From contig JAFYOP010000001.1 in NCBI GenBank assembly GCA_017547885.1, positions 1,500 through 65,499 on the forward strand: 64,000 nucleotides of DNA, given 5' to 3'. Positions 1,826 through 63,713 of the stretch are shown in pieces. The stretch is from Clostridia bacterium. Its GTDB lineage: Bacteria; Bacillota; Clostridia; Christensenellales; CAG-138. A program made the translations under genes and the position numbers. Positions within the stretch are counted from its first letter, which is position 1, and the number at the start of each line of letters is the position of its first letter. The notes beneath the pieces were generated by a model that searched no databases, was not told the DNA's origin, and saw only the letters and a list, made by a program, of their open reading frames with translations.

Positions 1826-1960
1826 TAAAACGCTAAAGCGTTTCCGGGCGGCAAAATCTGCAAAGTACGAAAACCTGACGGTTTTCATCCGTTTTGCCGT
1901 ACACGCCACCAAAGCCGGAATGAAAATCAAGGGGGTGCGACCCCTTGATAATCCCCGGAG
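1826..1960. repeat. Family B structured intergenic repeat, copy B1
   Basis: Alignable with 21893..22034. It has a closing helix TTCCGGG/CCCCGGA, hairpin GAAAACC-TGAC-GGTTTTC, helix CATCCG..CCGGAATG and hairpin ATCAAGGGG-loop-CCCCTTGAT. Confidence 0.7.
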
Positions 1961-3386: not shown

Positions 3387-3400
3387 CGGAGGAAATCAAG

Positions 3401-3598
3401 GTGAAAGTAAGGCTCAATGAGGACACCGAAGTTGTCCGCATGGTAAAGGAGGGCCTTGAGGCCCGTGGGGGCTACTGCCCCTGTGTGCGTGAGATCAGCG
3501 AGGACACAAAGTGCATGTGCAAGGAGTTCAGGGAGCAGATAGCGGATCCCGACTTTGAGGGCTACTGCCACTGCATGCTGTACTATAAGGAAAAGTAA
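3401..3598 (+). CDS. Small Cys-rich protein, ferredoxin-thioredoxin reductase catalytic-subunit-like
   Basis: 65-aa ORF with a GTG start 7 nt after GGAGG. Cysteine pattern CPC..CMC..CHC resembles FTR catalytic-domain proteins. Confidence 0.65.
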   Translation: MKVRLNEDTEVVRMVKEGLEARGGYCPCVREISEDTKCMCKEFREQIADPDFEGYCHCMLYYKEK

Positions 3599-3610
3599 AC
3601 AATAAAAGTA

Positions 3611-3645
3611 AAAGGGCTGTGGGAAACCACGGCCCTTTGATATTT
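3611..3645 (+). terminator. Intrinsic terminator after the FTR-like gene
   Basis: Stem GGGCTGTGG / CCACGGCCC with a GAAA loop, followed by TTTGATATTT. Confidence 0.7.
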
Positions 3646-3889
3646 ATCTAATCCCACCCACCACAGAACTAAAGTAATAGTGAATAGTGAAGGAGTATTT
3701 ATTATCTATACCCACCCGCCACCCTTTAAATGTATCTTCGCCTAATGGCGAAGACGGGGGAGGACGGATAAAGCTCCATTAACCGCGAATAACTCCATGG
3801 GGTGTAACCTATCCTGCCGATAGCACGTTTCGCTTCTCCCGCAGGGAGAAGCTTCCTTAAAGGGTGGAGGGTGGGTATAGATAATAAAT
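3641..3889. repeat. Family A quasi-palindromic element, copy A1 (extended variant)
   Basis: The order is a solo arm TATTTATCTAATCCCACCCACCACA, then a GTAATAGTGAATAGTGAAGGAGTATT module, then the full element 3697..3889. The element's arms are ATTTATTATCTATACCCACCCGCCACCCTTTAA and TTAAAGGGTGGAGGGTGGGTATAGATAATAAAT. Subterminal hairpins are TCTTCGCC-TAAT-GGCGAAGA and GCTTCTCCC-GCA-GGGAGAAGC. Confidence 0.85.
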
Positions 3890-3975
3890 GGTCTATCGCC
3901 AAAAAGGGAAAAACGGATTGCCACGGCAGTATGCGGACTGCCTCGCAATGACAAAAGCCAACTTGCTCATCTTAC

Positions 3976-4007
3976 ACAAAAAGCCCCATCCTTCATGGGG
4001 CTTTTTG
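3976..4007. terminator. Bidirectional intrinsic terminator (part of the C1 3'-UTR cassette)
   Basis: CAAAAA-AGCCCCAT-CCTTC-ATGGGGCT-TTTTT. An A-run lies upstream and a T-run downstream. A near-identical hairpin occurs at 35650..35679. Confidence 0.75.
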
Positions 4008-4051
4008 GGCAGCACACCTAAGCATGCTTACACTTGAATCAATTTAAAACT

Positions 4052-4122
4052 TTCGCTTTTCTTTCTCTTTTTGCTTCTTTTTCTTCTTTATTTTCGCGTC
4101 CGAAAAGAAAGAGAAAAAGAAG
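4052..4122 (+). repeat. Family C Py-Py-Pu triplex-type module, copy C1
   Basis: TTCGCTTTTCTTTCTCTTTTTGCTTCTTTTTCTTCTTTATTTTCGCGTCCGAAAAGAAAGAGAAAAAGAAG. Same tracts 1 and 3 as 35724..35794 and the reverse complement of 63642..63713. It starts 11 nt beyond the stop of minus-strand gene 4133..4783. Confidence 0.9.
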
Positions 4123-4132
4123 GTATATCAAA

Positions 4133-4783
4133 TCACTTCCTCCTCACCCGCACCCAAAAGCCGCTGCCGTCCCGGGCACGGAGGAAGCGGGTGTAGCCGG
4201 GAGGGCCGCTGCGGCCCTCTGCGGGAAGGGCGTGAATGAGATAATCCACACCCTTGTGGCGGGACTCCCCCTCAAGATAGCAGCGGTCCGTGCCGGGATA
4301 TTCCACCCGCCGCCAGCGGGAAAAGGGAAAAGCCTGAGGGAAGGGATTCAGTACCGCGTCATCCTGAGGCGGCGGGGGAAGGGGCTGGGGCTGTTCTGCG
4401 GGGAAAAGCTCCGCCGCCTTTTGCAGTATTTCAAGGAGAGCGGCGGAATTGGGCCGCTGGGGCTGCTTGGGCTGAGCTTGCGGCGGCTGCTCAGGGTGCC
4501 GGGGAGCAGGAATAGGCTTTTGAGCCGAAAGGCCCATCAGCAACGCCGTCCGTGCCTTGCCAAGGGCAGCGGAGTGCCCCGCAAGGCAGCCCTGCATGGC
4601 TATCCTGTCTCCATCCGGCACAAAGGCGCCCACCACGTCATTAGGGGCGGATTCCCGCGGGTATACCTTGCCCTGCCTGTCAATAAGGTACAGCTCCTTA
4701 CAGGGAACGGACAGCTGTATTTCCTCCCCCAGCGTAAGAAATGCCCTGCCGCCCGGGCCTGAAAGGGTAATGAGTCTTTTCAT
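4133..4783 (-). CDS. Hypothetical protein with a Pro/Gln-rich central linker
   Basis: Track ORF 4133..4918. Start moved to ATG 4783, preceded by AAAAGGAGA. No family recognised with confidence. Confidence 0.5.
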   Translation of the reverse strand: MKRLITLSGPGGRAFLTLGEEIQLSVPCKELYLIDRQGKVYPRESAPNDVVGAFVPDGDRIAMQGCLAGHSAALGKARTALLMGLSAQKPIPAPRHPEQPPQAQPKQPQRPNSAALLEILQKAAELFPAEQPQPLPPPPQDDAVLNPFPQAFPFSRWRRVEYPGTDRCYLEGESRHKGVDYLIHALPAEGRSGPPGYTRFLRARDGSGFWVRVRRK

Positions 4784-5593: not shown

Positions 5594-6664
5594 ATGAGCG
5601 AAATGTATTCAGCATCCGCGGCAAAAGGACTTGCCGCATATCAGCATAATAAGGACGCACTGCTCCTTGCCATAGAAAGCTCCTGTGACGAAACGGCGGC
5701 CTCTGTGCTGCGGGGGGACAGGGAAGTGCTCAGCATGAGCGTATATACCCAGATACCCCTCCATCGTAAGTTCGGCGGGGTGGTGCCGGAGCTTGCCTCA
5801 CGCAGCCACGTGGAAAAGATAGGGGAAGTGGTAAACTATGCCCTTGAGTCCGCAAAGGTCACCATAGACGACATATCCGCCATAGCCGTCACCTGCGGCC
5901 CCGGCCTTGTGGGGGCGCTGCTGGTGGGGGTAAGCTATGCAAAGGGCCTTGCCTTTGCCAAAGGGCTGCCCCTCATCGGCGTAAACCACCTTGCGGGGCA
6001 TATCGCTGCCAACTACCTTACATATCCCGACCTTAAGCCTCCCTTTATGTGCCTTGTGGCCTCCGGCGGGCACAGCCATATTATCAAGGTGGAGGATTAT
6101 CATAAATTCACTCTCCTTGGCCGCACCCGTGACGACGCGGCAGGTGAGGCCTTTGACAAGGTTGCAAGAGCACTGGGTCTGCCATACCCCGGCGGGCCGG
6201 AGCTTGAGAAGCTGGCCCGTGAGGGAGACCCAAACAAATACCCCTTCCACTCCGCGCTGAATCAAAGCATAGAGGAAAGCGACTTCAGCTTTTCCGGCAT
6301 AAAGACAGCGGTGGTAAACCTGCTGCACAATGCAGAGCAAAAGGGCGAAAGCCTGGATCCTGCGGACATTGCCGCGTCCTTCCAGCGGGCGGTGTGCGAT
6401 GCCCTTACAATGAAATCCGTACATGCCGCAAAGGCCCACGGCATGGACACCCTTGCCCTTGCGGGGGGAGTATCCGCCAACAAGGCCCTCCGGGGCGCAC
6501 TTGAGGCAGAGTGCAGGCGTCAGGGGGTGCGGTTCTGCTGTCCGGATTTCCGCTTCTGCACCGACAACGCCGCAATGATAGCCTGCGCCGGCCACTACGG
6601 CCTTATGGCGGGGCAGCTCAGCGGCCTTGAGCTGAATGCCGTGCCGAATCTGGCGCTGTGTTAG
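5594..6664 (+). CDS. tsaD: tRNA N6-adenosine threonylcarbamoyltransferase
   Basis: Track ORF 5237..6664, start set at ATG 5594. Motifs ESSCDETAASV, GVNHLAGH, SGGHSHI and FSFSGIKTAV are classic TsaD/Kae1. Confidence 0.95.
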   Translation: MSEMYSASAAKGLAAYQHNKDALLLAIESSCDETAASVLRGDREVLSMSVYTQIPLHRKFGGVVPELASRSHVEKIGEVVNYALESAKVTIDDISAIAVTCGPGLVGALLVGVSYAKGLAFAKGLPLIGVNHLAGHIAANYLTYPDLKPPFMCLVASGGHSHIIKVEDYHKFTLLGRTRDDAAGEAFDKVARALGLPYPGGPELEKLAREGDPNKYPFHSALNQSIEESDFSFSGIKTAVVNLLHNAEQKGESLDPADIAASFQRAVCDALTMKSVHAAKAHGMDTLALAGGVSANKALRGALEAECRRQGVRFCCPDFRFCTDNAAMIACAGHYGLMAGQLSGLELNAVPNLALC

Positions 6665-6672
6665 GGGGGAGT

Positions 6673-6730
6673 GTTCTTTTCTTTAAAAGAAAAGAACCAA
6701 AAGAAGCGTACTTTCCTTAAAGGAAAGTAC
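6673..6730 (-). repeat. Family D twin Py/Pu hairpin module, copy D1 (Py-Py-Pu sense on the minus strand)
   Basis: GTTCTTTTCTTTAAAAGAAAAGAAC-CAAAAGAAGC-GTACTTTCCTTAAAGGAAAGTAC, 8 nt after the tsaD stop. Same module as the reverse complement of 62243..62314. Confidence 0.9.
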
Positions 6731-6781
6731 CAAAGGATAAATAACATAATTAAAAAAGTTTGCACAGAAGTGCTGTCAATC

Positions 6782-6809
6782 AAAAAAGCCACTCACGAGC
6801 GGCTTTTTT
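6782..6809. terminator. Bidirectional intrinsic terminator between tsaD and the AI-2E transporter gene
   Basis: AAAAAAGCCACTC-ACGA-GCGGCTTTTTT, flanked by an A-run and a T-run. Confidence 0.75.
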
Positions 6810-6817
6810 GCATATAT

Positions 6818-6860
6818 AATACTTATTCACTATTCATTCTTCACTATTACTTATCTATAT
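6818..6860. repeat. Fragment of the family A flank module plus the start of an arm
   Basis: AATACTTATTCACTATTCATTCTTCACTATTAC-TTATCTATA. This is the reverse complement of the GTAATAGTGAA..GTATT module seen beside A1 and A5, joined to TTATCTATA. It overlaps the stop codon of 6855..8000. Confidence 0.6.
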
Positions 6861-8000
6861 CTCCTGTCCTGCGGCCCGCTTTTCCTCCAGCCGCTTATTT
6901 ACCCATTCCCGCGTCATGGTGTGGATGACCGCCATAATGGGCACGCACAGCAGCGCTCCAAGGAAGCCGAACAAGCCGCCGCCCAAAAGCAGCGCTATCA
7001 ATACCCACAGGGGAGAGATGCCCACGGCGTTGCCCACAACGTGGGGGTAAATAAGGTTGCCCTCGATGGGCTGAATGGTGCATATCAGCAGTATGAACCA
7101 CAGTGCGCTGGGGGGATCCACCACAAACAGTATCACCGCGCCTATGCCTGCGGATACCCATGCGCCTACGATGGGTATCATCTGGCCCAGGCCCACCAAT
7201 ACGCTTATCAGCAGAGCAAAGGGGAACTTGAATATGCTCATGCCGATGAAGCACATGCCTCCCAGTATAAAGCACTCGGTAAGCATGCCGTATACATAAT
7301 TGTGCAGTGAGGTGTTGGTTTCGTCGCCTACGTGTATTATGTAATCTGCGGTGCGCTCATTGAACACGGCCTTGCAGAACTTGCGGGATTGACGGATAAG
7401 TGTCTCCTTGCCGGCAAGGCAGTATATGCTGATGATGAAAGCGAAGGCAAGGTCAACCAATACTCCGGCAAGCCCCATGGTGAACTTTACCGCAGCAGAG
7501 CTTACTGTGGAGATGTATTGGTATATCTCTGTAAGGATATTGTTGCCCATCTCCATCAGCTTGGCTTCCACTTCTTGGTTGAAGTTGAGGCTTTCCCAAA
7601 CGTTGGTGGCCCATTCGGTAAGGCTGGTGGCGTACTGGGTGAAGTCTGCTGCAAGGGTCTTTATGCTTTCCACCAGCTGAGGACCCACCACCAGCACAAG
7701 CGTTATGATTATTGCAAACACAAACAGCATTGCAAGCACAAGGCAGGTGCCCCGCTTTGCGCCGCAGTCCTTCCAGCGGCGGAATACCTTTGTCTCCAGA
7801 AAGTGCATGGGCATGTTTGCGATAAAGGCTATGGCAATGCCTATGAAAACAGGAGTAACAATGCTGACAAAGCCGCCGAGGGCAGAGCGCACCGCTGTCA
7901 GGTTTTCAAGTATTTCGTAAAGTATTATGCCGAAGGCCACAATGAACAGGGAACGTCGGGTGGACTTCCACAGGCTCTCCATGTTTGGTCTATCCTTCAC
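6855..8000 (-). CDS. AI-2E family transporter (PerM-like permease)
   Basis: 381-aa polytopic ORF. The C-terminal region IQPIEGNLIYPHVVGNAVGISPLWVLIALLLGG is typical of the AI-2E/UPF0118 family. Confidence 0.85.
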   Translation of the reverse strand: MKDRPNMESLWKSTRRSLFIVAFGIILYEILENLTAVRSALGGFVSIVTPVFIGIAIAFIANMPMHFLETKVFRRWKDCGAKRGTCLVLAMLFVFAIIITLVLVVGPQLVESIKTLAADFTQYATSLTEWATNVWESLNFNQEVEAKLMEMGNNILTEIYQYISTVSSAAVKFTMGLAGVLVDLAFAFIISIYCLAGKETLIRQSRKFCKAVFNERTADYIIHVGDETNTSLHNYVYGMLTECFILGGMCFIGMSIFKFPFALLISVLVGLGQMIPIVGAWVSAGIGAVILFVVDPPSALWFILLICTIQPIEGNLIYPHVVGNAVGISPLWVLIALLLGGGLFGFLGALLCVPIMAVIHTMTREWVNKRLEEKRAAGQEI

Positions 8001-10534: not shown

Positions 10535-10879
10535 GGGCGTTGCCCTTTCGCGAAAAACCATTTGGGTTTTCCGCGAGTATCCGCTGGGTTGGGGGCGGCC
10601 AAATGCTGCGCAAGTGGCCGAATACAATCCCTTTGGGGGATGCCGATTCCCTCTCGCGGCTGCGGCCGCTCCCGGGCGGGAATCGGGCAGCGGTATCCAT
10701 CCCTTGCGGGATGGTTCCGTTTTCGCCGCACATGTCGCCGAAAACGGATTGAAAGCTTTGGGCATGCTGCCGAATGCGGATTGAAAGCCTCGAAGGTCTA
10801 ATATCCTTCCGATAGCACGCCCTGTTTTTCCGCAAGGAAAAACATACCTTAAAAGGGTGGCGGGCGGGAATAGATAAAT
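10535..10879. repeat. Composite repeat A2: family B-like hairpin series fused to a family A right end
   Basis: The B-like part has TTCCCTCTCGCGG..CTCCCGGGCGGGAA, CCATCCC-TTGC-GGGATGG and CCGTTTTCGCCG-CACATGT-CGCCGAAAACGG. It ends with CCGATAGCACG, TGTTTTTCC-GCAA-GGAAAAACA and TTAAAAGGGTGGCGGGCGGGAATAGATAA. No left arm is present. Confidence 0.75.
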
Positions 10880-10964
10880 ATACCCAAACCTAACTTGCCT
10901 CAGTTGACAAAATTGCACCTGCGATTATGCGGGAGCAAAAATAAAGAACGGAAGTACACACCGT

Positions 10965-21892: not shown

Positions 21893-22034
21893 TGCAGGAT
21901 TTCCCTCTCGCCTTGCGGCTCCCGGGCGGGAAAGCCTGTAAAGAAAGAAAACCTTATGGTTTTCATCCGTTCTGACGCACATGTCGTCAGAGCCGGAATG
22001 AAAATCAAGGGGTGCGCCCCTTGATGATCCCGGA
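21893..22034. repeat. Family B structured intergenic repeat, copy B2
   Basis: Has TTTCCCTCTCGCC..CTCCCGGGCGGGAAA, then GAAAACC-TTAT-GGTTTTC, CATCCGTTCTGACG-CACATGT-CGTCAGAGCCGGAATG and ATCAAGGGG-TGCG-CCCCTTGAT, and closes with TCCCGGA. Confidence 0.75.
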
Positions 22035-22590: not shown

Positions 22591-22771
22591 TATTTATCTA
22601 TACCCACCCACCACCCTTTTAATGTGCTTTTTCCCTTACGGGAAAAAGGGCAGGGTTGTTCGCAAGCCCGTTCTGATATGCAATGATTTAGATGCGTGTC
22701 ATTGACAGCACCCTCGGCTTTTCCGCAGGAAAAGCTACATTAAAAGGGTGGCGGGCGGGATTAGATAATTA
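22591..22771. repeat. Family A quasi-palindromic element, copy A3
   Basis: Arms are TATTTATCTATACCCACCCACCACCCTTTTAATG and CATTAAAAGGGTGGCGGGCGGGATTAGATAATTA. Subterminal hairpins are CTTTTTCCC-TTAC-GGGAAAAAG and GCTTTTCC-GCA-GGAAAAGC. Confidence 0.9.
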
Positions 22772-24539: not shown

Positions 24540-24568
24540 AAAAGCCGCTCAGCTGCCGAGCGGCTTTT
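24540..24568 (-). terminator. Intrinsic terminator of the DUF1015 gene
   Basis: AAAAGCCGCTC-AGCTGCC-GAGCGGCTTTT. Confidence 0.8.
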
Positions 24569-24595: not shown

Positions 24596-24632
24596 CGTTA
24601 TTCTTTGGTTCTTTTCTTTTAAAGAAAAGAAC
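24596..24632 (+). repeat. Family D module, single-hairpin variant D2
   Basis: ACGTTATTCTTTG-GTTCTTTTCTTTTAAAGAAAAGAAC, 6 nt beyond the stop of minus-strand gene 24639..25973. It equals D3 with the hairpin-b segment deleted. Confidence 0.85.
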
Positions 24633-31716: not shown

Positions 31717-31820
31717 GGGAATACCTTACCCACACAGGCAACACCGGCCTTTGGACAGAGCATCCCTTTTTCCCGCAGGGAAAAAGTACATTGAAGGGCG
31801 GTGGGAGGGAATAGATAATA
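31717..31820. repeat. Family A element, truncated copy A4 (right half plus a degenerate left arm)
   Basis: GGACAGAGCATCC, then CTTTTTCCC-GCA-GGGAAAAAG, then TACATTGAAGGGCGGTGGGAGGGAATAGATAATAAG. The left side has only a TACCTTACCCACACAGG remnant. Confidence 0.7.
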
Positions 31821-31830
31821 AGCCGCAAAT

Positions 31831-34664: not shown

Positions 34665-34916
34665 AAATTTATCTATACTCTGCCCGTAAATGAAGCTGCG
34701 GGTAATAATGAATGGTGAGAGAGTATTGATTATCTATTCCCACCCACCACCCTTTTAAGGTATCTTCGCCTGCCGGCGAAGACGGGACAGGTATGATAAA
34801 CCTCCGGCCTTTGCTAATAACCCAAAGGATAATGTACCGCATTATCGATGGAATGCTCGGCTTTTCCGTAGGAAAAGCTACATTAAAAGGGTGGCGGGTG
34901 GGATTAGATAATAATT
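34665..34916. repeat. Family A quasi-palindromic element, copy A5 (extended variant)
   Basis: The order is a solo arm start AATTTATCTATAC, then a GGTAATAATGAATGGTGAGAGAGTATT module, then the element. Its arms are GATTATCTATTCCCACCCACCACCCTTTTAAGG and CATTAAAAGGGTGGCGGGTGGGATTAGATAATAAT. Hairpins are TCTTCGCC-TGCC-GGCGAAGA and GCTTTTCC-GTA-GGAAAAGC. Confidence 0.85.
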
Positions 34917-35067
34917 ACCTTTTCACTGTTACCGATAACTTTGTTTGCGGGCGGGTATGGATTGGATCCTATATATAATCCCATAAGTCCTAAAATAATG
35001 GACGAAACAGCCGTATTGTGATATTATTATTGTAATTACGGCCATATGGCCATATGGAGGATATGTA

Positions 35068-35649: not shown

Positions 35650-35679
35650 AAAACGCCCCATCCTTCATGGGGCGTTTTT
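35650..35679. terminator. Bidirectional intrinsic terminator (part of the C2 3'-UTR cassette)
   Basis: AAAACGCCCCAT-CCTTC-ATGGGGCGTTTTT. Same hairpin as 3976..4007, with an A-T to C-G compensatory change at the stem base. Confidence 0.8.
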
Positions 35680-35723
35680 AGATAGCACGATCAGGCTTGC
35701 TTATTATATTTATTTGTTTAACG

Positions 35724-35794
35724 TTCGCTTTTCTTTCTCTTTTTGCTTCTTTTTCTGCTTTCTTTTCGCGTCCGAAAAGAAAGAGAAAAAGAAG
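35724..35794 (+). repeat. Family C Py-Py-Pu triplex-type module, copy C2
   Basis: TTCGCTTTTCTTTCTCTTTTTGCTTCTTTTTCTGCTTTCTTTTCGCGTCCGAAAAGAAAGAGAAAAAGAAG, 11 nt beyond the stop of minus-strand gene 35806..36750. Confidence 0.9.
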
Positions 35795-35805
35795 AATATC
35801 CTCCA

Positions 35806-36750
35806 TCAATAAAACGTTGCAACTTCCTTTTCCGGCTTTTGTGCAGGCTCAACATCTATAACGTGGAGCACAGGGCCGCGGCCGCCGTAGATGCGGTTAA
35901 AGCGTACCTCTATGGAGGCGGTGACTATAACCCACTGGCGCTGGGTCAGGGTGTCTGCCTTGTCCCACTTGCACACAAGGCCGCTGTATTCGATATCGTC
36001 CACACAGCAGGTCATAACGTGACGTCCGGCAATGAAGGTATCTTCGGGCAGGCGGGCGTTGCGGGCAACTATGCCCTTAAAGCGAACGGTTTTGCCTGCG
36101 TACTTTTTCAGCTCCTCGGACATATCCCGATACCATATGGCGTAGTCGTTGTCGCCGATTTCGATAACCGGAGCATCAACGTCAAAGGGGAGGGGGTCCT
36201 CAATATCGTCGTATTCCACATGGCCGTCGGTGTATTCGTAGGCGATGTTGGCACGGCGGGATACACCGCGGATTATCTTGTGTATCTCCTCTTTGTTGAG
36301 GGTGTCGTCCGCACGGTTCAGCACAACCAGCTCCGCCGTCATCAGCTTGTCCACCATAAGGGAGCGCATGTTGGTGTTGTAGGGAATGAAGGTTTTGGCG
36401 TCCACAAACATGAACTCCTGATACACTGTCCATTCCTTGGGGAAAACACGGGCAAGGTCGCTGAGCAGCCACATGCCGTTGTACTCTATCAGCACGCGAT
36501 CCGCCTGATATTTCTTGACCAGCTTGGTAAGGTCTTCGGAGGTGACCTCTTCGATATCCTCTATGGTTTCGATGTAAACGTATTTGCTGGGGAACTTTGA
36601 AGGATCCAGCTCCTCAATGCCCTCCTCGCACATCAGCACAAGGGTGCGCTCCCCGTCATTAAAGCGCTTATCGCACAGGGTCTCCTGCATAAAGCGGGTC
36701 TTGCCGCCCTCCAGAAACCCCGTGAACATATATACAGGAATCTGTTTCAT
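35806..36750 (-). CDS. G3E-family GTPase-like N-terminal domain fused to a DUF1980/TIGR03943-like C-terminal domain
   Basis: 314-aa ORF. N-terminus VYMFTGFLEGGKT (P-loop-like). The C-terminal segment GRHVMTCCVDDIEYSGLVC resembles YcgQ/DUF1980. Confidence 0.65.
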   Translation of the reverse strand: MKQIPVYMFTGFLEGGKTRFMQETLCDKRFNDGERTLVLMCEEGIEELDPSKFPSKYVYIETIEDIEEVTSEDLTKLVKKYQADRVLIEYNGMWLLSDLARVFPKEWTVYQEFMFVDAKTFIPYNTNMRSLMVDKLMTAELVVLNRADDTLNKEEIHKIIRGVSRRANIAYEYTDGHVEYDDIEDPLPFDVDAPVIEIGDNDYAIWYRDMSEELKKYAGKTVRFKGIVARNARLPEDTFIAGRHVMTCCVDDIEYSGLVCKWDKADTLTQRQWVIVTASIEVRFNRIYGGRGPVLHVIDVEPAQKPEKEVATFY

Positions 36751-36753
36751 GTA

Positions 36754-37902
36754 CTATACTCCAAACAGCTCCATAAGGGCGGATTCATTCAGCTTTGCGC
36801 CGATTACGCACAGCCTGCCGGTAACGCCTGCGCTGCCTTCGCGAACGTTTATCTCGCCGGGTACAAAGTCAAAGTGTATCCAGGCATTTTCGCCCTTCAG
36901 TATGCCCTTTGCCCTGAGTACCGCGCCGTACTTTTCCTCGTCCTCAAGGGCGGCAAGGGCAGCGGCGATACCTTCCGCAGAGAAGGCCTTGGCAGTTTCA
37001 ACGCCCCAGCTGGTGAATACTTCGTCAGCGTGATGATGGTGATGATGTCCGCACTCGCACTCGTGGTCATGCTCGTGATGATGGCCGCATTCGCACTCAT
37101 GGTCATGCTCGTGATGATGGCCGCATTCGCACTCGTGGTCATGCTCGTGATGATGGCCGCATTCGCACTCATGGTCGTGTTCGTGATGGCCGCACTCGCA
37201 CTCGTGGTCATGCTCGTGATGATGTCCGCACTCGCACTCGTGCTCGTGATGGTGGTGGTGATGATGCTCGCTTTCTGCCTTCAGGTGTGCAAGCTCCTCA
37301 TCAAGGGTGTCGCGGCGCTCCATGGCGGTGAGTATCTGTGCGCCGGTCAGCTCATCCCAGGGGGTAGTGATGAGGGTGGCATCGGCGTTGTGCTGACGGA
37401 TAAGCTCAACGGTGGCGGTGAGCTTGTCCTCGGATATGCCTGCGGTGCGGGAGAGGACTATGGAATTGGCGTGCTCTATCTGGTCGTTGAAGAATTCACC
37501 AAAGTTCTTCATGTACATCCTGCACTTGTTGGCGTCAACGATGGCGGTAAAGCTGTTGAGCTGCAGCTCCTCTGCTCCCACGTCCTGTACGGCGCGGATA
37601 ACGTCGCTGAGCTTGCCTACGCCGGAGGGCTCTATCAGTATACGGTCGGGGGAGTACTGCTCCAGCACCTTCTTGAGGGCCTCGCCAAAATCGCCCACCA
37701 GGCTGCAGCAGATGCAGCCGGAGTTCATTTCGGTAACCTCAATTCCGGCTTCCTCAAGGAAACCGCCGTCAATGCCTATTTCACCGAATTCGTTTTCTAT
37801 AAGTACCAGCTTTTCCCCGCCAAATGCCTCGGGGATGAGCTTCTTGATGAGAGTAGTCTTGCCTGCGCCCAGGAAGCCGGAAAAAATATCTACCTTTGTC
37901 AT
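36754..37902 (-). CDS. CobW/COG0523 family GTP-dependent metallochaperone with a long His/Cys repeat insert
   Basis: Track ORF 36754..38055, start set at ATG 37902 (MTKVDIFSGFLGAGKTT); ATG 37914 is an alternative. Has the CICCS motif (CxCC), the ILIEPSGVG switch and a CobW C-terminal domain. The insert is (HDHECECGHHHE)n. Confidence 0.85.
   Translation of the reverse strand: MTKVDIFSGFLGAGKTTLIKKLIPEAFGGEKLVLIENEFGEIGIDGGFLEEAGIEVTEMNSGCICCSLVGDFGEALKKVLEQYSPDRILIEPSGVGKLSDVIRAVQDVGAEELQLNSFTAIVDANKCRMYMKNFGEFFNDQIEHANSIVLSRTAGISEDKLTATVELIRQHNADATLITTPWDELTGAQILTAMERRDTLDEELAHLKAESEHHHHHHHEHECECGHHHEHDHECECGHHEHDHECECGHHHEHDHECECGHHHEHDHECECGHHHEHDHECECGHHHHHHADEVFTSWGVETAKAFSAEGIAAALAALEDEEKYGAVLRAKGILKGENAWIHFDFVPGEINVREGSAGVTGRLCVIGAKLNESALMELFGV
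37030..37268 (-). repeat. Coding tandem repeat, 36-bp unit x about 5.5, inside the COG0523 gene
   Basis: Units GCCGCATTCGCACTC(A/G)TGGTCATGCTCGTGATGATG begin at 37048, 37084, 37120, 37156 (33 bp) and 37189. They encode HHHEHDHECECG repeats flanked by His runs. Confidence 0.9.
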
Positions 37903-38113
37903 GGTTTGATGCATCTCTTTTCGTTGTATTTTGAGAAGGAAGACTGCAAAAGGCCATCCCTCCACAACTGTATTATAGTCAGACAGAAGCGGATATACAA
38001 GGGCACACGGGCATTTTCTTGCTATGTTCACAGGTAAGGAGGAATTTCGCCACAAATTATGAACAAATGCGTATTATAGGTGAACTGAATAAAAAATATG
38101 GTATAATAGGCCT

Positions 38114-60083: not shown

Positions 60084-60203
60084 CAAACAAAAGGGCAACC
60101 CGATTCACATACTCAAATGAGAATCAGCTTGCCCAGGCGGTCGGCTTATTGCGTACGGTTCCCTTGTGGTAAGCCACTTCCGCCAGTAGCCGTACGAGTA
60201 GTA
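60084..60203 (-). promoter_or_regulatory. ZTP (pfl motif) riboswitch with a terminator expression platform, upstream of purE
   Basis: The minus strand reads CGUACGG-CUACUGGCGGAAGUGGCUUACCACAAGGGAA-CCGUACG-CAAUAAG-CCGACCGCCUGGGCA. This contains the conserved ACUGGCGGA, GUGG/CCAC and CCGACCGCCUGGGCA pseudoknot blocks. The GGGCA overlaps the 5' arm of terminator GGGCAAGCUGAUUC..GAAUCGGGUUGCCC-UUUUGUUUG. Confidence 0.9.
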
Positions 60204-61704: not shown

Positions 61705-61967
61705 TGGGTAACCTCCTGTGAATGAATAATGTATAATTTATCTCCCCGAGCATGCATCGGGATACGATGCAGTCCGACAAAATTACGGACAAATCTTCAT
61801 TATACTACCACGGCAAGGGGGGATTCGCAACAATAAATTGAAGCTTTTTTATGGCATCAGCCCCTTAATTTACGCATGAATGACAGTACAAAATCCGATG
61901 GAAAAAATGGAATGGGAAGGGAGGGCAAACCTGTTGAAATAATAGAAAAAGACGGGCGGCAAAGGAG

Positions 61968-62153
61968 TAATTATCTATCCCCACCCGTCACCCTTTTAAT
62001 GTATATTCGCCTTACGGAGAAGAAAAAGGAGTATAAATTATATGTAAACCTGAAAAGCATGCACTGACATTATCCGGTGTCAGCGTAAGCTTATCCTTTT
62101 TTCCCGTAAGGGAAAAAGTACATTGAAGGGTGGAGGGAGGGAATAGATAATTA
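61968..62153. repeat. Family A quasi-palindromic element, copy A6
   Basis: Arms are TAATTATCTATCCCCACCCGTCACCCTTTTAATG and CATTGAAGGGTGGAGGGAGGGAATAGATAATTA. The right subterminal hairpin is CTTTTTTCCC-GTAA-GGGAAAAAG. Confidence 0.85.
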
Positions 62154-62179
62154 AAAAGCTCACTTTTTGCCAAAACCAC

Positions 62180-62208
62180 AAATTCGGCCTCCCATCGAGG
62201 CCGAATTT
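62180..62208 (-). terminator. Intrinsic terminator of serS
   Basis: AAATTCGGCCTC-CCATC-GAGGCCGAATTT. On the minus strand it is followed by TTTGTGGTTTTGG. Confidence 0.75.
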
Positions 62209-62242
62209 GGATAGCATATGTATGGTTTTTAATAGGTTATTT

Positions 62243-62314
62243 TACGCTATTCTTTGGTACTTTCTTTTAAAGAAAGTACGCTTCTTTTGGTTCTTTTCTT
62301 TTAAAGAAAAGAAC
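62243..62314 (+). repeat. Family D twin Py/Pu hairpin module, copy D3 (Py-Py-Pu sense on the plus strand)
   Basis: TACGCTATTCTTTG-GTACTTTCTTTTAAAGAAAGTAC-GCTTCTTTTG-GTTCTTTTCTTTTAAAGAAAAGAAC, ending 8 nt from the serS stop codon. Confidence 0.9.
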
Positions 62315-63641: not shown

Positions 63642-63713
63642 CTTCTTTTTCTCTTTCTTTTCGGACGCGAAAAGAAATGAGAAAAAGAAGCAAAAAGAGA
63701 AAGAAAAGCGAAA
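63642..63713 (-). repeat. Family C Py-Py-Pu triplex-type module, copy C3 (sense on the minus strand)
   Basis: The reverse complement reads TTCGCTTTTCTTTCTCTTTTTGCTTCTTTTTCTCATTTCTTTTCGCGTCCGAAAAGAAAGAGAAAAAGAAG. It lies between the stop of 63745.. and the serS start. Confidence 0.9.

What the first reader, a model, noticed from the sequence alone, without database searches (positions are those of the whole stretch)
3976..4122. Reusable 3'-UTR cassette: stop codon, triplex-type module, GATAGCAC-like box, terminator
C1 lies between the stop codon of minus-strand gene 4133..4783 and the bidirectional terminator at 3976..4007. The same order recurs at 35650..35805, downstream of the G3E GTPase gene. 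That order is stop codon, about 10 nt, the Py/Pu module, a roughly 40-nt AT-rich spacer, a GGCAGCACA / AGATAGCACGA box, and the terminator GCCCCAT-CCTTC-ATGGGGC. About 150 bp are alignable, including the terminator, whose basal pair differs A-T versus C-G (compensatory).

The D modules have the same placement:
- tsaD stop, D1, terminator 6782..6809.
- DUF1015 stop, D2, terminator 24540..24568.
- serS stop, D3, GGATAGCAT box, terminator 62180..62208.

So five of six modules sit inside predicted 3' UTRs. In those mRNAs the module appears as a hairpin followed by the mirror purine tract. This looks like a modular, possibly mobile, terminator or 3'-end cassette rather than independent evolution of each terminator.
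Basis: partly seen in the sequence, partly recalled or inferred. Interest (0 to 1): 0.6.

Follow-up and report, generated by a model that had tools for sequence, protein, structure and literature searches.

The report
Triplex-type repeat cassette at gene ends
The flagged stretch is one copy of a small, fast-changing family of intergenic repeats in uncultured gut Clostridia. Its three purine/pyrimidine tracts change together so that one strand could always fold into a hairpin plus a third strand. It sits right after stop codons, or less often just before start codons, which makes it a natural test case for whether bacteria use triple helices at mRNA ends.

Summary
C1 (4056-4122) and C2 (35728-35794) share about 150 alignable bases in the order stop codon, module, AT-rich spacer, GRYAGCAC box, bidirectional terminator. 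A third copy, C3 (63642-63708, minus strand), lies in the serS leader.

Each module has three tracts. T2 and T3 form a 22-bp hairpin. T1 is the parallel complement of T3, which is triplex logic rather than Watson-Crick logic.

In 60 related loci, all 18 C variants and 6 D variants keep this three-way match through coordinated changes in all three tracts:
- T5/T5/A5 becomes T4/T4/A4.
- One triad changes G to A in all three tracts.
- Eight triads are lost from each tract.
- The clamp pair swaps compensatorily.

Strains with identical flanking proteins carry different or deleted alleles. The whole cassette recurs next to unrelated genes.

The hairpin side always faces the gene. About 20 C loci sit a few to about 26 nt after a stop codon (four lie further away). 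Nine sit 24-50 nt before a start codon, in the opposite orientation.

The closest known kind is the intrastrand-triplex (PIT/BoxC/TMECO) repeats. This family is a new AT-rich, gene-end-linked variant. I infer a role in protecting mRNA ends; this is not shown.

The parts
4133..4135 (-). Stop codon (TGA) of the 216-aa gene 4133-4783, 10 nt from the module.
   Evidence: The gene is called in public assemblies. It has no Pfam match and a weak codon score, but is the best of the six frames.
4102..4122 (+). C1 tract T3: purine tract GAAAAGAAAGAGAAAAA plus clamp GAAG. This is the gene-proximal side.
   Evidence: It pairs by Watson-Crick with T2.
4074..4101 (+). C1 tract T2: clamp CTTC, pyrimidine arm with one bulge and one mismatch, closing pair, and loop CGTC.
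4056..4073 (+). C1 tract T1: CTTTTCTTTCTCTTTTT plus G. It is the parallel complement of T3 at 17 of 17 positions and stays unpaired in Watson-Crick folding.
4043..4055 (+). Conserved left flank TTTAAAAC-TTTCGC of the module.
   Evidence: It is shared by most copies.
4016..4042 (+). AT-rich spacer containing the palindrome TAAGCATGCTTA.
   Evidence: It is orthologous between strains even where the module and terminator differ.
4007..4015 (+). Box GGGCAGCAC (GGATAGTAC in other strains).
3978..4006 (.). Bidirectional terminator: A5, GCCCCAT-CCTTC-ATGGGGC, T5.
   Evidence: The stem is replaced by a different one in other strains.
35654..35794 (+). C2 cassette: terminator 35654-35679, box AGATAGCAC 35680-35688, spacer, module 35728-35794. 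The stop codon of the CobW-like gene is at 35806-35808.
   Evidence: It is conserved at the orthologous site in relatives whose CobW-like protein is 95% and 86% identical.
63642..63708 (-). C3 module. It lies 32 nt after the stop of the upstream gene and 50 nt before the serS ATG, and the transcript reads Py1-Py2-Pu.
   Evidence: A type-2 allele sits at the same site in relatives with 97% identical serS.
6673..6738 (+). D1: two hairpin-plus-mirror-tail units, 8 nt after the tsaD stop. GTGCTGTC box at 6770-6777, terminator at 6782-6809.
24600..24632 (+). D2: one unit, 6 nt from the stop of the minus-strand DUF1015 gene. Terminator at 24540-24568.
62249..62314 (+). D3: two units, 8 nt from the serS stop (minus strand). 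Box GGATAGCAT follows terminator 62180-62208.
   Evidence: It is conserved, with three-tract changes, in relatives with 97% and 93% identical serS.

Best explanation
**What it is.** C1 is one copy of a family of short (about 45-90 nt) intergenic repeats. The family is confined to a clade of uncultured, Christensenellales-like gut Clostridia.

**Anatomy.** Each element has three homopurine/homopyrimidine tracts.
- T2 and T3 form a long hairpin closed by a 4-bp clamp.
- T1 is joined by a single nucleotide and is the mirror of T2.
- One strand can therefore fold as a hairpin plus a third strand, an intrastrand triplex. This is the pyrimidine motif (class IV) on one strand and the purine motif (class II) on the other.
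- The D modules are shorter versions of the same design.

**Copying.** The element is copied or converted between loci. This often happens as part of a larger unit of about 150 nt: terminator hairpin, GRYAGCAC box, AT-rich spacer and module. That is why C1 and C2 align.

**Orientation.** The element is always placed with the hairpin next to a gene end and the third strand away from it.
- Most copies sit a few to about 26 nt after a stop codon and before a bidirectional terminator.
- A minority sit 24-50 nt before a start codon.

**Inferred mechanism (not shown).** The element is transcribed as part of the mRNA and acts as an end cap. The very stable hairpin blocks exonucleases. The third strand, which is the strand nearest the RNA end in both placements, folds onto the hairpin and locks or hides that end. 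In the 3' placement, cleavage or trimming through the terminator and the AT-rich spacer would leave the module as the stable 3' end.

**Shown versus inferred.** The following are shown: the anatomy, the three-tract co-variation, the gene-linked orientation, the cassette reuse and the rapid turnover. Transcription, triplex formation and any effect on stability are inferred.
For: **Three-tract logic**
- In all 18 C variants and 6 D variants, T1 matches T3 in parallel register: 16-17 of 17 in the long C forms, 9 of 9 in the short forms, and every triad (6-9) in the D forms.
- T2 matches T3 by Watson-Crick pairing.
- The clamp is 4/4 paired in seven different sequence versions.
- Canonical T1 matches T3 at only 13 of 17 positions in the antiparallel sense, so an alternative hairpin does not explain it.

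**Coordinated changes in all three tracts**
- T5/T5/A5 becomes T4/T4/A4.
- Type 1 versus type 2 differs by a triad G to A. Alignment columns 12 and 58 associate perfectly, 8 sequences against 6.
- Type 3 has its first triad changed G to A.
- The short form lacks 8 triads in each tract.
- D unit A loses its G/C triad in all three tracts in the relatives with 97% identical serS.

**Gene-linked orientation**
- T3 faces the gene end in all 29 or so C loci.
- All 7 D copies with an adjacent gene end in view read class II after a stop codon. The other two are uninformative: one follows a terminator (L004) and one lies at a contig end (L012).
- In L041/42, two modules of opposite orientation flank one terminator. 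Each lies 13 nt from the stop of its own convergent gene.
- Within the window, orientation follows the adjacent gene and not one replication direction.

**Conservation at orthologous sites across species-level distances**
- C2 is present in the 100, 95 and 86% groups.
- C3 is present in the 100 and 97% groups, and D3 in the 100, 97 and 93% groups.

**Folding.** The hairpin is the minimum-energy fold on both strands, at -20 to -30 kcal/mol with z-scores of -2.6 to -5.8. T1 is left free.

**Cassette reuse.**
Against: - No expression or structure data exist for these organisms.
- In the commoner 3' placement the mRNA carries the purine-motif version. Holder et al. state that this motif does not form in RNA. 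A 2026 review does list A.A-U and G.G-C reverse-Hoogsteen triples as an RNA class.
- The 1-nt link between T1 and the 4-bp clamp is geometrically tight if clamp and triplex form together. This is my own reasoning.
- Alleles with large deletions exist in strains with identical flanking protein, so a given copy is dispensable.
- In L009 a terminator lies between the stop codon and the module.
- In four loci the module is 49-141 nt from the stop.
- A simple hairpin would be enough as an exonuclease barrier, so the barrier idea alone does not explain T1.
Confidence: 0.45

Rival explanations
1. This is a DNA-level element only. It would be a potential-intrastrand-triplex (PIT/TMECO-like) repeat that matters as single-stranded or supercoiled DNA. 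It could be H-DNA formed from the T1/T2 mirror repeat, an intrastrand triplex on the non-template strand or in R-loops, or a replication or transcription obstacle. It would persist as selfish or instability-prone DNA with no role in the mRNA.
For: - It has the same architecture as the class II/IV motifs of Holder et al. Those motifs are intergenic, multi-copy and linked to genomic instability, and showed no promoter or terminator activity.
- The C1 locus carries five different alleles, including 22-nt and 30-nt deletions, among contigs whose flanking protein is identical.
- Other small hairpin elements are nested in T2.
- Synteny breaks right after the tsaD stop, where D1 sits.
- Both triplex motifs are accepted for DNA.
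Against: - Orientation is tied to the adjacent gene and to whether the site is 5' or 3' of it, not to one strand or to the replication direction. TMECO shows no such trend.
- The spacing to stop codons is tight.
- The element is kept at orthologous sites across three species-level groups.
Confidence: 0.3
2. The cassette is a small transcription unit. The box would act as a -35 element, with a TAYWYT -10 element 17 nt downstream. Transcription would run through the module in the Py1-Py2-Pu sense. The module would then always be a 5' triple-helix leader, either of an mRNA (5' type) or of an antisense RNA running into the 3' end of the neighbouring gene (3' type).
For: - TGGATA/TAGATA-17-TATACT/TATTAT matches occur at C2 and in C1/C2 alleles.
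- L012 has a perfect TTGACA at the position of the box.
- This reading would unify all copies under the well-established U.A-U RNA triplex motif.
Against: - Only 6 of 31 copies carry a promoter-like match, against 2.5 +/- 1.5 in shuffles. Four of the six are homologous cassettes.
- The -10-like hexamer is not kept in the L049 cassette.
- In L003, L007, L010 and L014 the terminator hairpin abuts T1 directly, leaving no room for a promoter.
- The D modules have no such signal.
Confidence: 0.07
3. The tracts are binding sites for a protein or for ribonucleases (for example a GAAAAG-recognising factor). On this reading the mirror arrangement reflects the binding geometry rather than a nucleic-acid triplex.
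For: - The flanks are conserved (TTTAAAC-TTCGC on the T1 side, RTAT on the T3 side) and the box recurs.
- A/G-rich single strands are typical protein-binding RNA.
Against: - The C, D and IR-family versions differ in sequence but keep the same three-way relation.
- A mirror repeat does not present two equivalent surfaces to a protein. This rests on established DNA geometry.
Confidence: 0.08
4. The resemblance is a chance similarity of low-complexity AT-rich sequence, and the terminators evolved independently.
For: - The tracts are low-complexity.
- A purine-only pattern gave one unrelated hit in a viral contig.
Against: - Zero matches are expected against 3 observed for the core.
- There are 18 exact hits in genome and metagenome scans, all in one clade or one sample.
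- There are no triple-type hits in shuffles.
- The probability that a permuted T1 matches as well is 0.0003-0.006 per long variant.
Confidence: 0.01

Closest known systems
Potential intrastrand triplex (PIT) elements, also called BoxC or TMECO, and the ITxF class I-IV motifs (Hoyne/Maher 2000 as cited in, and Holder et al. 2015, PMC4666352)
   Same: - Three consecutive tracts on one strand (pyrimidine, purine, (reverse-)Hoogsteen) separated by short loops.
- The complementary strand carries the partner class (here class II and class IV).
- Multi-copy and strictly intergenic.
- Sometimes found in inverted pairs.
- Associated with local sequence instability.
- Not linked to phages, as far as the viral contig scans show. 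Plasmids were not searched.
   Different: - This family is A/T-rich with isolated G/C triads. TMECO is G/C-rich.
- It has 16-17 triads, above the 6-15 searched by ITxF.
- It has a 4-bp Watson-Crick clamp beyond the triads and a recurrent mid-tract bulge.
- Its position and orientation are fixed relative to gene ends. TMECO showed no distance or orientation trend.
- It is embedded in a larger reusable cassette with a terminator.
- It occurs in Clostridia rather than Proteobacteria or Cyanobacteria.
- Natural three-tract co-variation is documented here.
REP/BIME extragenic palindromes of enterobacteria (from established knowledge and the introduction of PMC4666352)
   Same: - Short extragenic hairpin repeats found mostly after genes.
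- Combined with other motifs in mosaic arrays.
- Known to stabilise upstream mRNA against 3' exonucleases.
- Hot spots of rearrangement.
   Different: - REPs are GC-rich imperfect palindromes without a third mirror tract.
- REPs occur in both orientations.
- REPs are tied to RAYT transposases, which I could not look for here.
ENE / MALAT1 / PAN RNA triple helices that protect RNA 3' ends (reviewed in PMC13541005)
   Same: - The idea that a terminal strand is hidden in a major-groove triple helix to block exonucleases.
- A U-rich/A-rich composition with a few C+.G-C triples.
- An interruption in the middle of the helix.
   Different: - In an ENE, two U-rich strands clamp a 3' A-rich tail (U.A-U).
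- Here the 3'-UTR version has one pyrimidine and two purine strands (purine motif). Only the 5'-leader version has the U.A-U arrangement.
- ENEs are eukaryotic or viral. According to that review, known prokaryotic RNA triple helices are riboswitches and a group II intron.
Selective RNA processing and stabilisation by intergenic stem-loops in Clostridium cellulolyticum (PMC4423207, abstract only)
   Same: Intergenic structures in a Clostridium that set the stability of neighbouring transcript segments. C3 sits between two co-oriented genes.
   Different: No repeat family, mirror tract or triplex is described there. I did not read beyond the abstract.
H-DNA-forming mirror repeats
   Same: T1 and T2 form a homopyrimidine mirror repeat with a 5-nt spacer. 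That is the sequence requirement for H-DNA.
   Different: H-DNA needs only two tracts. The conserved third tract (T3, the inverted repeat of T2) points to a single-stranded fold.

Membership tests
Intrastrand triplex motif (PIT / ITxF class II and IV) | Three consecutive tracts on one strand: pyrimidine, purine, and a third tract that matches the purine tract in the (reverse-)Hoogsteen sense. | tested here: met
   16-17 of 17 triads in 16 long variants, 9 of 9 in the short forms, and every triad (6-9) in the D units; no such arrangement in 20 shuffles.
Intrastrand triplex motif (PIT / ITxF class II and IV) | Short loops (1-6 nt) between the tracts, with at most one mismatch. | tested here: met
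   The T2-T3 loop is 3-6 nt plus a closing pair. The T1-T2 link is 1 nt, or 5 nt if the clamp opens.
Intrastrand triplex motif (PIT / ITxF class II and IV) | Multi-copy and intergenic. | tested here: met
   There are 3 C and 3 D copies in the window. At least 9-12 C copies occur in the camel co-assembly, and several in each of three MAGs. All are between genes.
Intrastrand triplex motif (PIT / ITxF class II and IV) | The isolated strand actually forms a triplex (CD, NMR or melting). | not testable with these tools
   The folding tools model Watson-Crick pairs only.
REP/BIME | Imperfect GC-rich palindrome of 20-40 bp, with an associated RAYT transposase. | tested here: not met
   The hairpin is AT-rich and about 50 nt, with an extra mirror tract. 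A RAYT was not searched for because no whole genome is available.
MITE | Terminal inverted repeats and target-site duplication, with a clean empty site in relatives. | tested here: inconclusive
   The flanks (TTTAAAC-TTCGC versus RTAT) are not inverted repeats or duplications. No clean empty site was found, because the loci lacking the module (L043-48, L057-59) are too diverged.
Intrinsic terminator | GC-rich stem-loop followed by a U-run. | tested here: not met
   The module has no U-run after the hairpin on either strand. The neighbouring GCCCCAT hairpin with A5/T5 does meet this feature.
ENE-type RNA triple helix | A U-rich internal loop clamping a 3' A-rich tract as U.A-U triples. | tested here: not met
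   The 3'-UTR orientation has one pyrimidine and two purine tracts. Only the 5'-leader orientation (C3 and 8 other loci) has two pyrimidine tracts, and there the third strand is 5'.
Any Rfam family | A match at the family's gathering score. | tested here: not met
   In the whole window only a tRNA and a ZTP riboswitch pass. In 3387-4200 the permissive scan gives only sub-threshold generic hairpin hits.

The most novel reading that the evidence does not exclude
These modules are bacterial mRNA-end caps built on real triple helices. In leaders, a 5'-terminal pyrimidine strand would fold into the hairpin's major groove (U.A-U / C+.G-C). After stop codons, a 3' purine strand would do the same by reverse-Hoogsteen pairing (A.A-U / G.G-C). 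On this reading the three-tract co-variation seen here is the evolutionary signature of that fold. It would be the first dispersed, gene-end-linked triple-helix element in bacterial mRNAs. It would also be natural evidence that a long purine-motif triplex forms in RNA, or co-transcriptionally in DNA, in vivo.
Probability: 0.25. Interest if true: 0.85.

Novelty: new variant of a known kind. Interest (0 to 1): 0.6.

Why it matters
Whether intrastrand triplex repeats in bacteria do anything has been open since BoxC/PIT elements were described. The best-studied case, TMECO, gave no in vivo footprint, no positional trend and no function beyond instability.

This family adds two things that case lacked:
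- Natural three-way co-variation across alleles and paralogues. This is hard to explain without selection on a three-stranded fold, because no copying mechanism templates a mirror repeat.
- A strict gene-linked placement rule: hairpin towards the gene, third strand away, a few to about 26 nt after stop codons or 24-50 nt before start codons.

Together these give a directly testable hypothesis, namely protection of the mRNA end by a triplex. They also give ready-made natural mutants: type 1, 2 and 3 alleles, short forms, and alleles with a deletion or hairpin-only shortening (none found with T1 alone removed).

The result also matters practically. These elements break short-read assemblies at the hairpin loop and are hot spots of strain-level variation in gut Clostridia.

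Tried and rejected
- **Small peptide.** The plus-strand frame through C1 reads [27 protein letters not shown] rejected a coding role because there is no conserved start codon or ribosome-binding site, the frame differs between copies, indels vary between copies, and the long ORF 4034-4762 scores -0.32 per codon.
- **Promoter in the cassette.** Promoter-like matches were not significantly enriched: 6 of 31 copies against 2.5 +/- 1.5 in shuffles.
- **Known RNA family.** None was found.
- **Phage association.** Three viral scans were run. Two found nothing. One hit was an unrelated purine-rich tract without a hairpin.
- **Alternative Watson-Crick pairing of T1 with T3.** Canonical T1 matches only 13 of 17 positions. 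Type 2 is mirror-symmetric and so cannot discriminate between the readings, but types 1 and 3, the short form and the D forms can.
- **Replication-linked orientation.** Rejected, because neighbouring modules in the window and in L041 point in opposite directions, each following its own gene.
- **Tool-based pair counting.** Abandoned, because MAFFT misplaces the T4/T5 indels in this low-complexity sequence. A hand-parsed table was used instead.
- **Terminator scan.** The tool misses A/T-flanked bidirectional terminators.
- **REP-near-stop-codon study.** I looked for the study I recall (Liang, Rudd and Deutscher 2015, from memory) showing that REP hairpins close to stop codons stall ribosomes. 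It is not in the library, so I do not use it as evidence.
- **Clean empty site.** None was found for the module.
Full report
**1. Observation**

On the + strand C1 consists of:
- an A5 run, the hairpin GCCCCAT-CCTTC-ATGGGGC and a T5 run (3978-4006)
- the box GGGCAGCAC (4007-4015)
- an AT-rich spacer
- the module (4056-4122)
- 10 nt further on, the stop codon of the minus-strand gene 4133-4783

C2 (35654-35794) has the same order and ends 11 nt from the stop of a CobW/G3E-like gene. The two copies align across the terminator, spacer and module. The terminator's basal pair is A-T in C1 and C-G in C2.

The 22-nt core occurs three times in the window against none expected. The third copy, C3 (63642-63708, minus strand), lies 32 nt after an upstream gene's stop and 50 nt before the serS start. 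There the transcript reads the module in the opposite sense.

The D modules sit 8, 6 and 8 nt after the stops of tsaD, the DUF1015 gene and serS. Each is followed by a terminator.

The box is only weakly enriched overall, at 16 occurrences against 9.3 +/- 3.0 expected. It nevertheless keeps its place in the cassette at C1, C2, D1 (6770-6777), D3 and in relatives.

**2. Anatomy**

I name the tracts T1, T2 and T3 along the + strand of C1.
- T1 is CTTTTCTTTCTCTTTTT.
- T2 is the clamp CTTC plus a pyrimidine arm.
- T3 is GAAAAGAAAGAGAAAAA plus the clamp GAAG.

T2 and T3 form a 22-bp hairpin. It is the minimum-energy fold on both strands, at -20 to -30 kcal/mol with z-scores of -2.6 to -5.8.

T1 stays unpaired in that model. 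Yet it is the base-by-base complement of T3 read in the same direction, at 17 of 17 positions. In the antiparallel sense it matches only 13 of 17. That is the rule for a third strand in a triplex:
- T.A-T and C+.G-C on this strand (class IV).
- A.A-T and G.G-C on the complementary strand (class II).

D units have the same plan with 6-9 triads: clamp GTTC or GTAC, hairpin, one C, then a mirror purine tail. A generic scan finds such arrangements only at these modules and at one site inside another repeat family. It finds none in shuffles.

**3. Relatives**

- Exact-pattern scans found the loop-centred 20/21-mer nine times in three uncultured Clostridia MAGs and nine times in one camel co-assembly. 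It was never found in viral contigs.
- BLAST within the fetched loci added further types.
- The window matches a 192-kb ENA contig. The source names for its proteins are "Clostridia bacterium", with relatives named Christensenellales or Christensenellaceae.

**4. Three-tract co-variation**

All 18 distinct C variants and 6 D variants keep the parallel T1:T3 match, the T2:T3 pairing and a fully paired clamp. The variants differ from one another by changes that appear in all three tracts at once:
- T5/T5/A5 becomes T4/T4/A4 (L003, L033-39).
- The type-2 pattern G-A4-G-A5-G-A4 replaces G-A4-G-A3-G-A-G-A5. The Py1 and Pu columns associate perfectly, 8 sequences against 6.
- Type 3 has its first triad changed from G to A.
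- A short form lacks eight triads from each tract.
- In the relatives with 97% identical serS, D unit A loses its single G/C triad in the hairpin arms and in the tail.

The clamp occurs as CTTC/GAAG, CTAC/GTAG, CTGC/GCAG, GTTC/GAAC, TTGC/GCAA, GTAC/GTAC and GCAC/GTGC.

Hairpin arms can be homogenised by templated repair. A mirror repeat cannot be copied from any template. I therefore read the T1 co-variation as selection on a three-stranded fold; this is inference.

Nearly all long forms also carry a one-base irregularity in the middle of T2. Its identity varies (a, c, g or t).

**5. Turnover and cassette reuse**

*C1 locus.* Contigs that encode the identical 216-aa protein carry five different alleles:
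- the window's type 1
- an intact type 2
- a form with both hairpin arms shortened
- a 22-nt deletion
- a 30-nt deletion

In the same alignment the terminator stem is entirely different (GCCCCAT..ATGGGGC versus CCGCTC..GAGCGG), while its flanks, the box and the spacer are conserved. The window strain's C1 module and terminator match its own C2. This suggests patchwise conversion between copies (inference).

*C2 locus.* The module, box and GCCCCAT terminator are present in relatives whose CobW-like protein is 95% and 86% identical, and absent at 83%. Different alleles occur within one protein class. One allele (L040-42) has a 58-nt foreign hairpin element nested in T2. L041 and L042 also show a second module after the stop of the convergent gene.

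*Other loci.* The same nested composite, with the same junction, occurs at other loci, so composites propagate. A complete cassette of terminator, box, spacer and module also lies next to unrelated genes in L017 and L049-54.

**6. Placement rule**

*C loci.* I curated about 29 non-redundant C loci.
- About 20 have T3 facing the stop codon of a gene whose mRNA then reads hairpin followed by purine tail. The distance is mostly 8-26 nt. The four outliers are at 49-141 nt, one of them with a terminator in between.
- Nine have T3 24-50 nt upstream of a start codon, so that the mRNA reads T1-T2-T3.

*D copies.* All 7 D copies with an adjacent gene end in view follow a stop codon at 6-16 nt in the hairpin-then-tail sense. 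The other two are uninformative: one follows a terminator and one lies at a contig end.

*Overall pattern.* T1 is always the gene-distal strand. Orientation follows the neighbouring gene, not a single genomic direction. Two genes, serS in the window and ORF 2695-4608 in L003, carry a module at both ends.

*Terminators.* On the T1 side there is usually a bidirectional terminator. It is either about 45 nt away or fused to the module's TTCGC edge, so that T1 doubles as its T-tract.

**7. Interpretation**

The gene-linked orientation argues for a role coupled to transcription or to the transcript. The rule "hairpin towards the gene, third strand towards the RNA end" fits an end-capping structure for both placements. 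I therefore favour an mRNA-end protection element in which T1 locks onto the hairpin (confidence 0.45; the mechanism is inferred).

The main difficulty is that the commoner orientation needs a purine-motif triplex in RNA. One source says this does not form. Another lists it as a class.

The main rival is a purely DNA-level PIT element, whose instability is well illustrated here (0.3). A promoter or antisense-leader reading is weakly supported. Coding, chance and known-RNA explanations are rejected.

**8. Comparison and novelty**

The closest described kind is the intrastrand-triplex repeats (PIT/BoxC/TMECO; PMC4666352). The sequence-level defining features are met. Triplex formation itself is untestable here. 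The family differs from TMECO in five ways:
- AT-rich composition
- length of 16-17 triads
- the clamp and the mid-tract bulge
- a strict gene-end placement
- membership of a reusable terminator cassette

It works partly like REP/BIME elements, and conceptually like ENE triple helices, but fails their membership features. A recent review lists only riboswitches and a group II intron as prokaryotic RNA triple helices. I rate it a new variant of a known kind, with interest 0.6.

Noticed in passing
window 3697-3889, 22591-22771, 34715-34926, 61961-62154; half copies at 3634-3675, 10822-10881, 31763-31822: A second repeat family of about 190-260 nt. Its terminal inverted repeats are TTATCTATNCCCACCCNCCACCCTTTWAA and its reverse complement, which is rich in G3 runs. 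It contains the GATAGCAC box and small Py/Pu hairpins with mirror tails. It is present or absent (258 nt) between strains with identical flanking protein, and is abundant in all related loci. It looks MITE-like.
   Followed up: partly
window 37007-37296 (inside minus-strand gene 36754-38055): Seven tandem 36-nt repeats, from codon composition apparently His/Cys/Glu-rich (not translated), lie in the second CobW/G3E gene. That gene's length varies from 359 to 435 aa among close relatives, possibly through repeat copy-number changes (not checked).
   Followed up: no
L010 5162-5214, L018, L014, L040-42; L017 9136-9243, L049-54: Two other small hairpin elements are found nested in the middle tract (T2) of modules, at or near the bulge position, and partly replace it. 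They are GGGCTGCCCGCAGGCAGTTCGTTGGAGCCGTCTCCCGGCTCCAAC and CCCCGAAAATCCTTAGATTTTCGGGG...GTCAAAGCTTCGCTTTGAC.
   Followed up: partly
window 3916-3952: The hairpin element GGATTGCCACGGCAG...CTGCCTCGCAATGAC sits between the IR element and the C1 terminator. The same element recurs in L011, L014 and L017, so the whole 3387-4132 spacer is a mosaic of repeats.
   Followed up: no
window 60124-60200 (-): A ZMP/ZTP riboswitch (53 bits against a gathering score of 39) lies upstream of the purine-biosynthesis genes.
   Followed up: no
window 1844-1934 and 21922-22012: A 91-nt direct repeat, 82% identical and of unknown nature. Another repeat at 10545-10756 is also found in L001 and L018.
   Followed up: no
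L020, L022, L027, L028, L030: Short-read (Logan) contigs end exactly in the module's hairpin loop. The module therefore breaks de Bruijn assemblies, and short-read censuses will under-count it.
   Followed up: no
window 6664-6870 versus L024/L025: Synteny breaks immediately after the tsaD stop. Strains without D1 have a different downstream gene (a FctA/Cna_B pilin-like protein) in place of the AI-2E transporter.
   Followed up: partly
window 4007-4015, 35680-35688, 6770-6777, 62209-62217; L017, L033-39, L049-54: The GRYAGCAC box always directly abuts the terminator's T/A run on the module side. It also occurs inside the IR family. Its role is unexplained, and a -35 promoter reading is not convincing.
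   Followed up: partly
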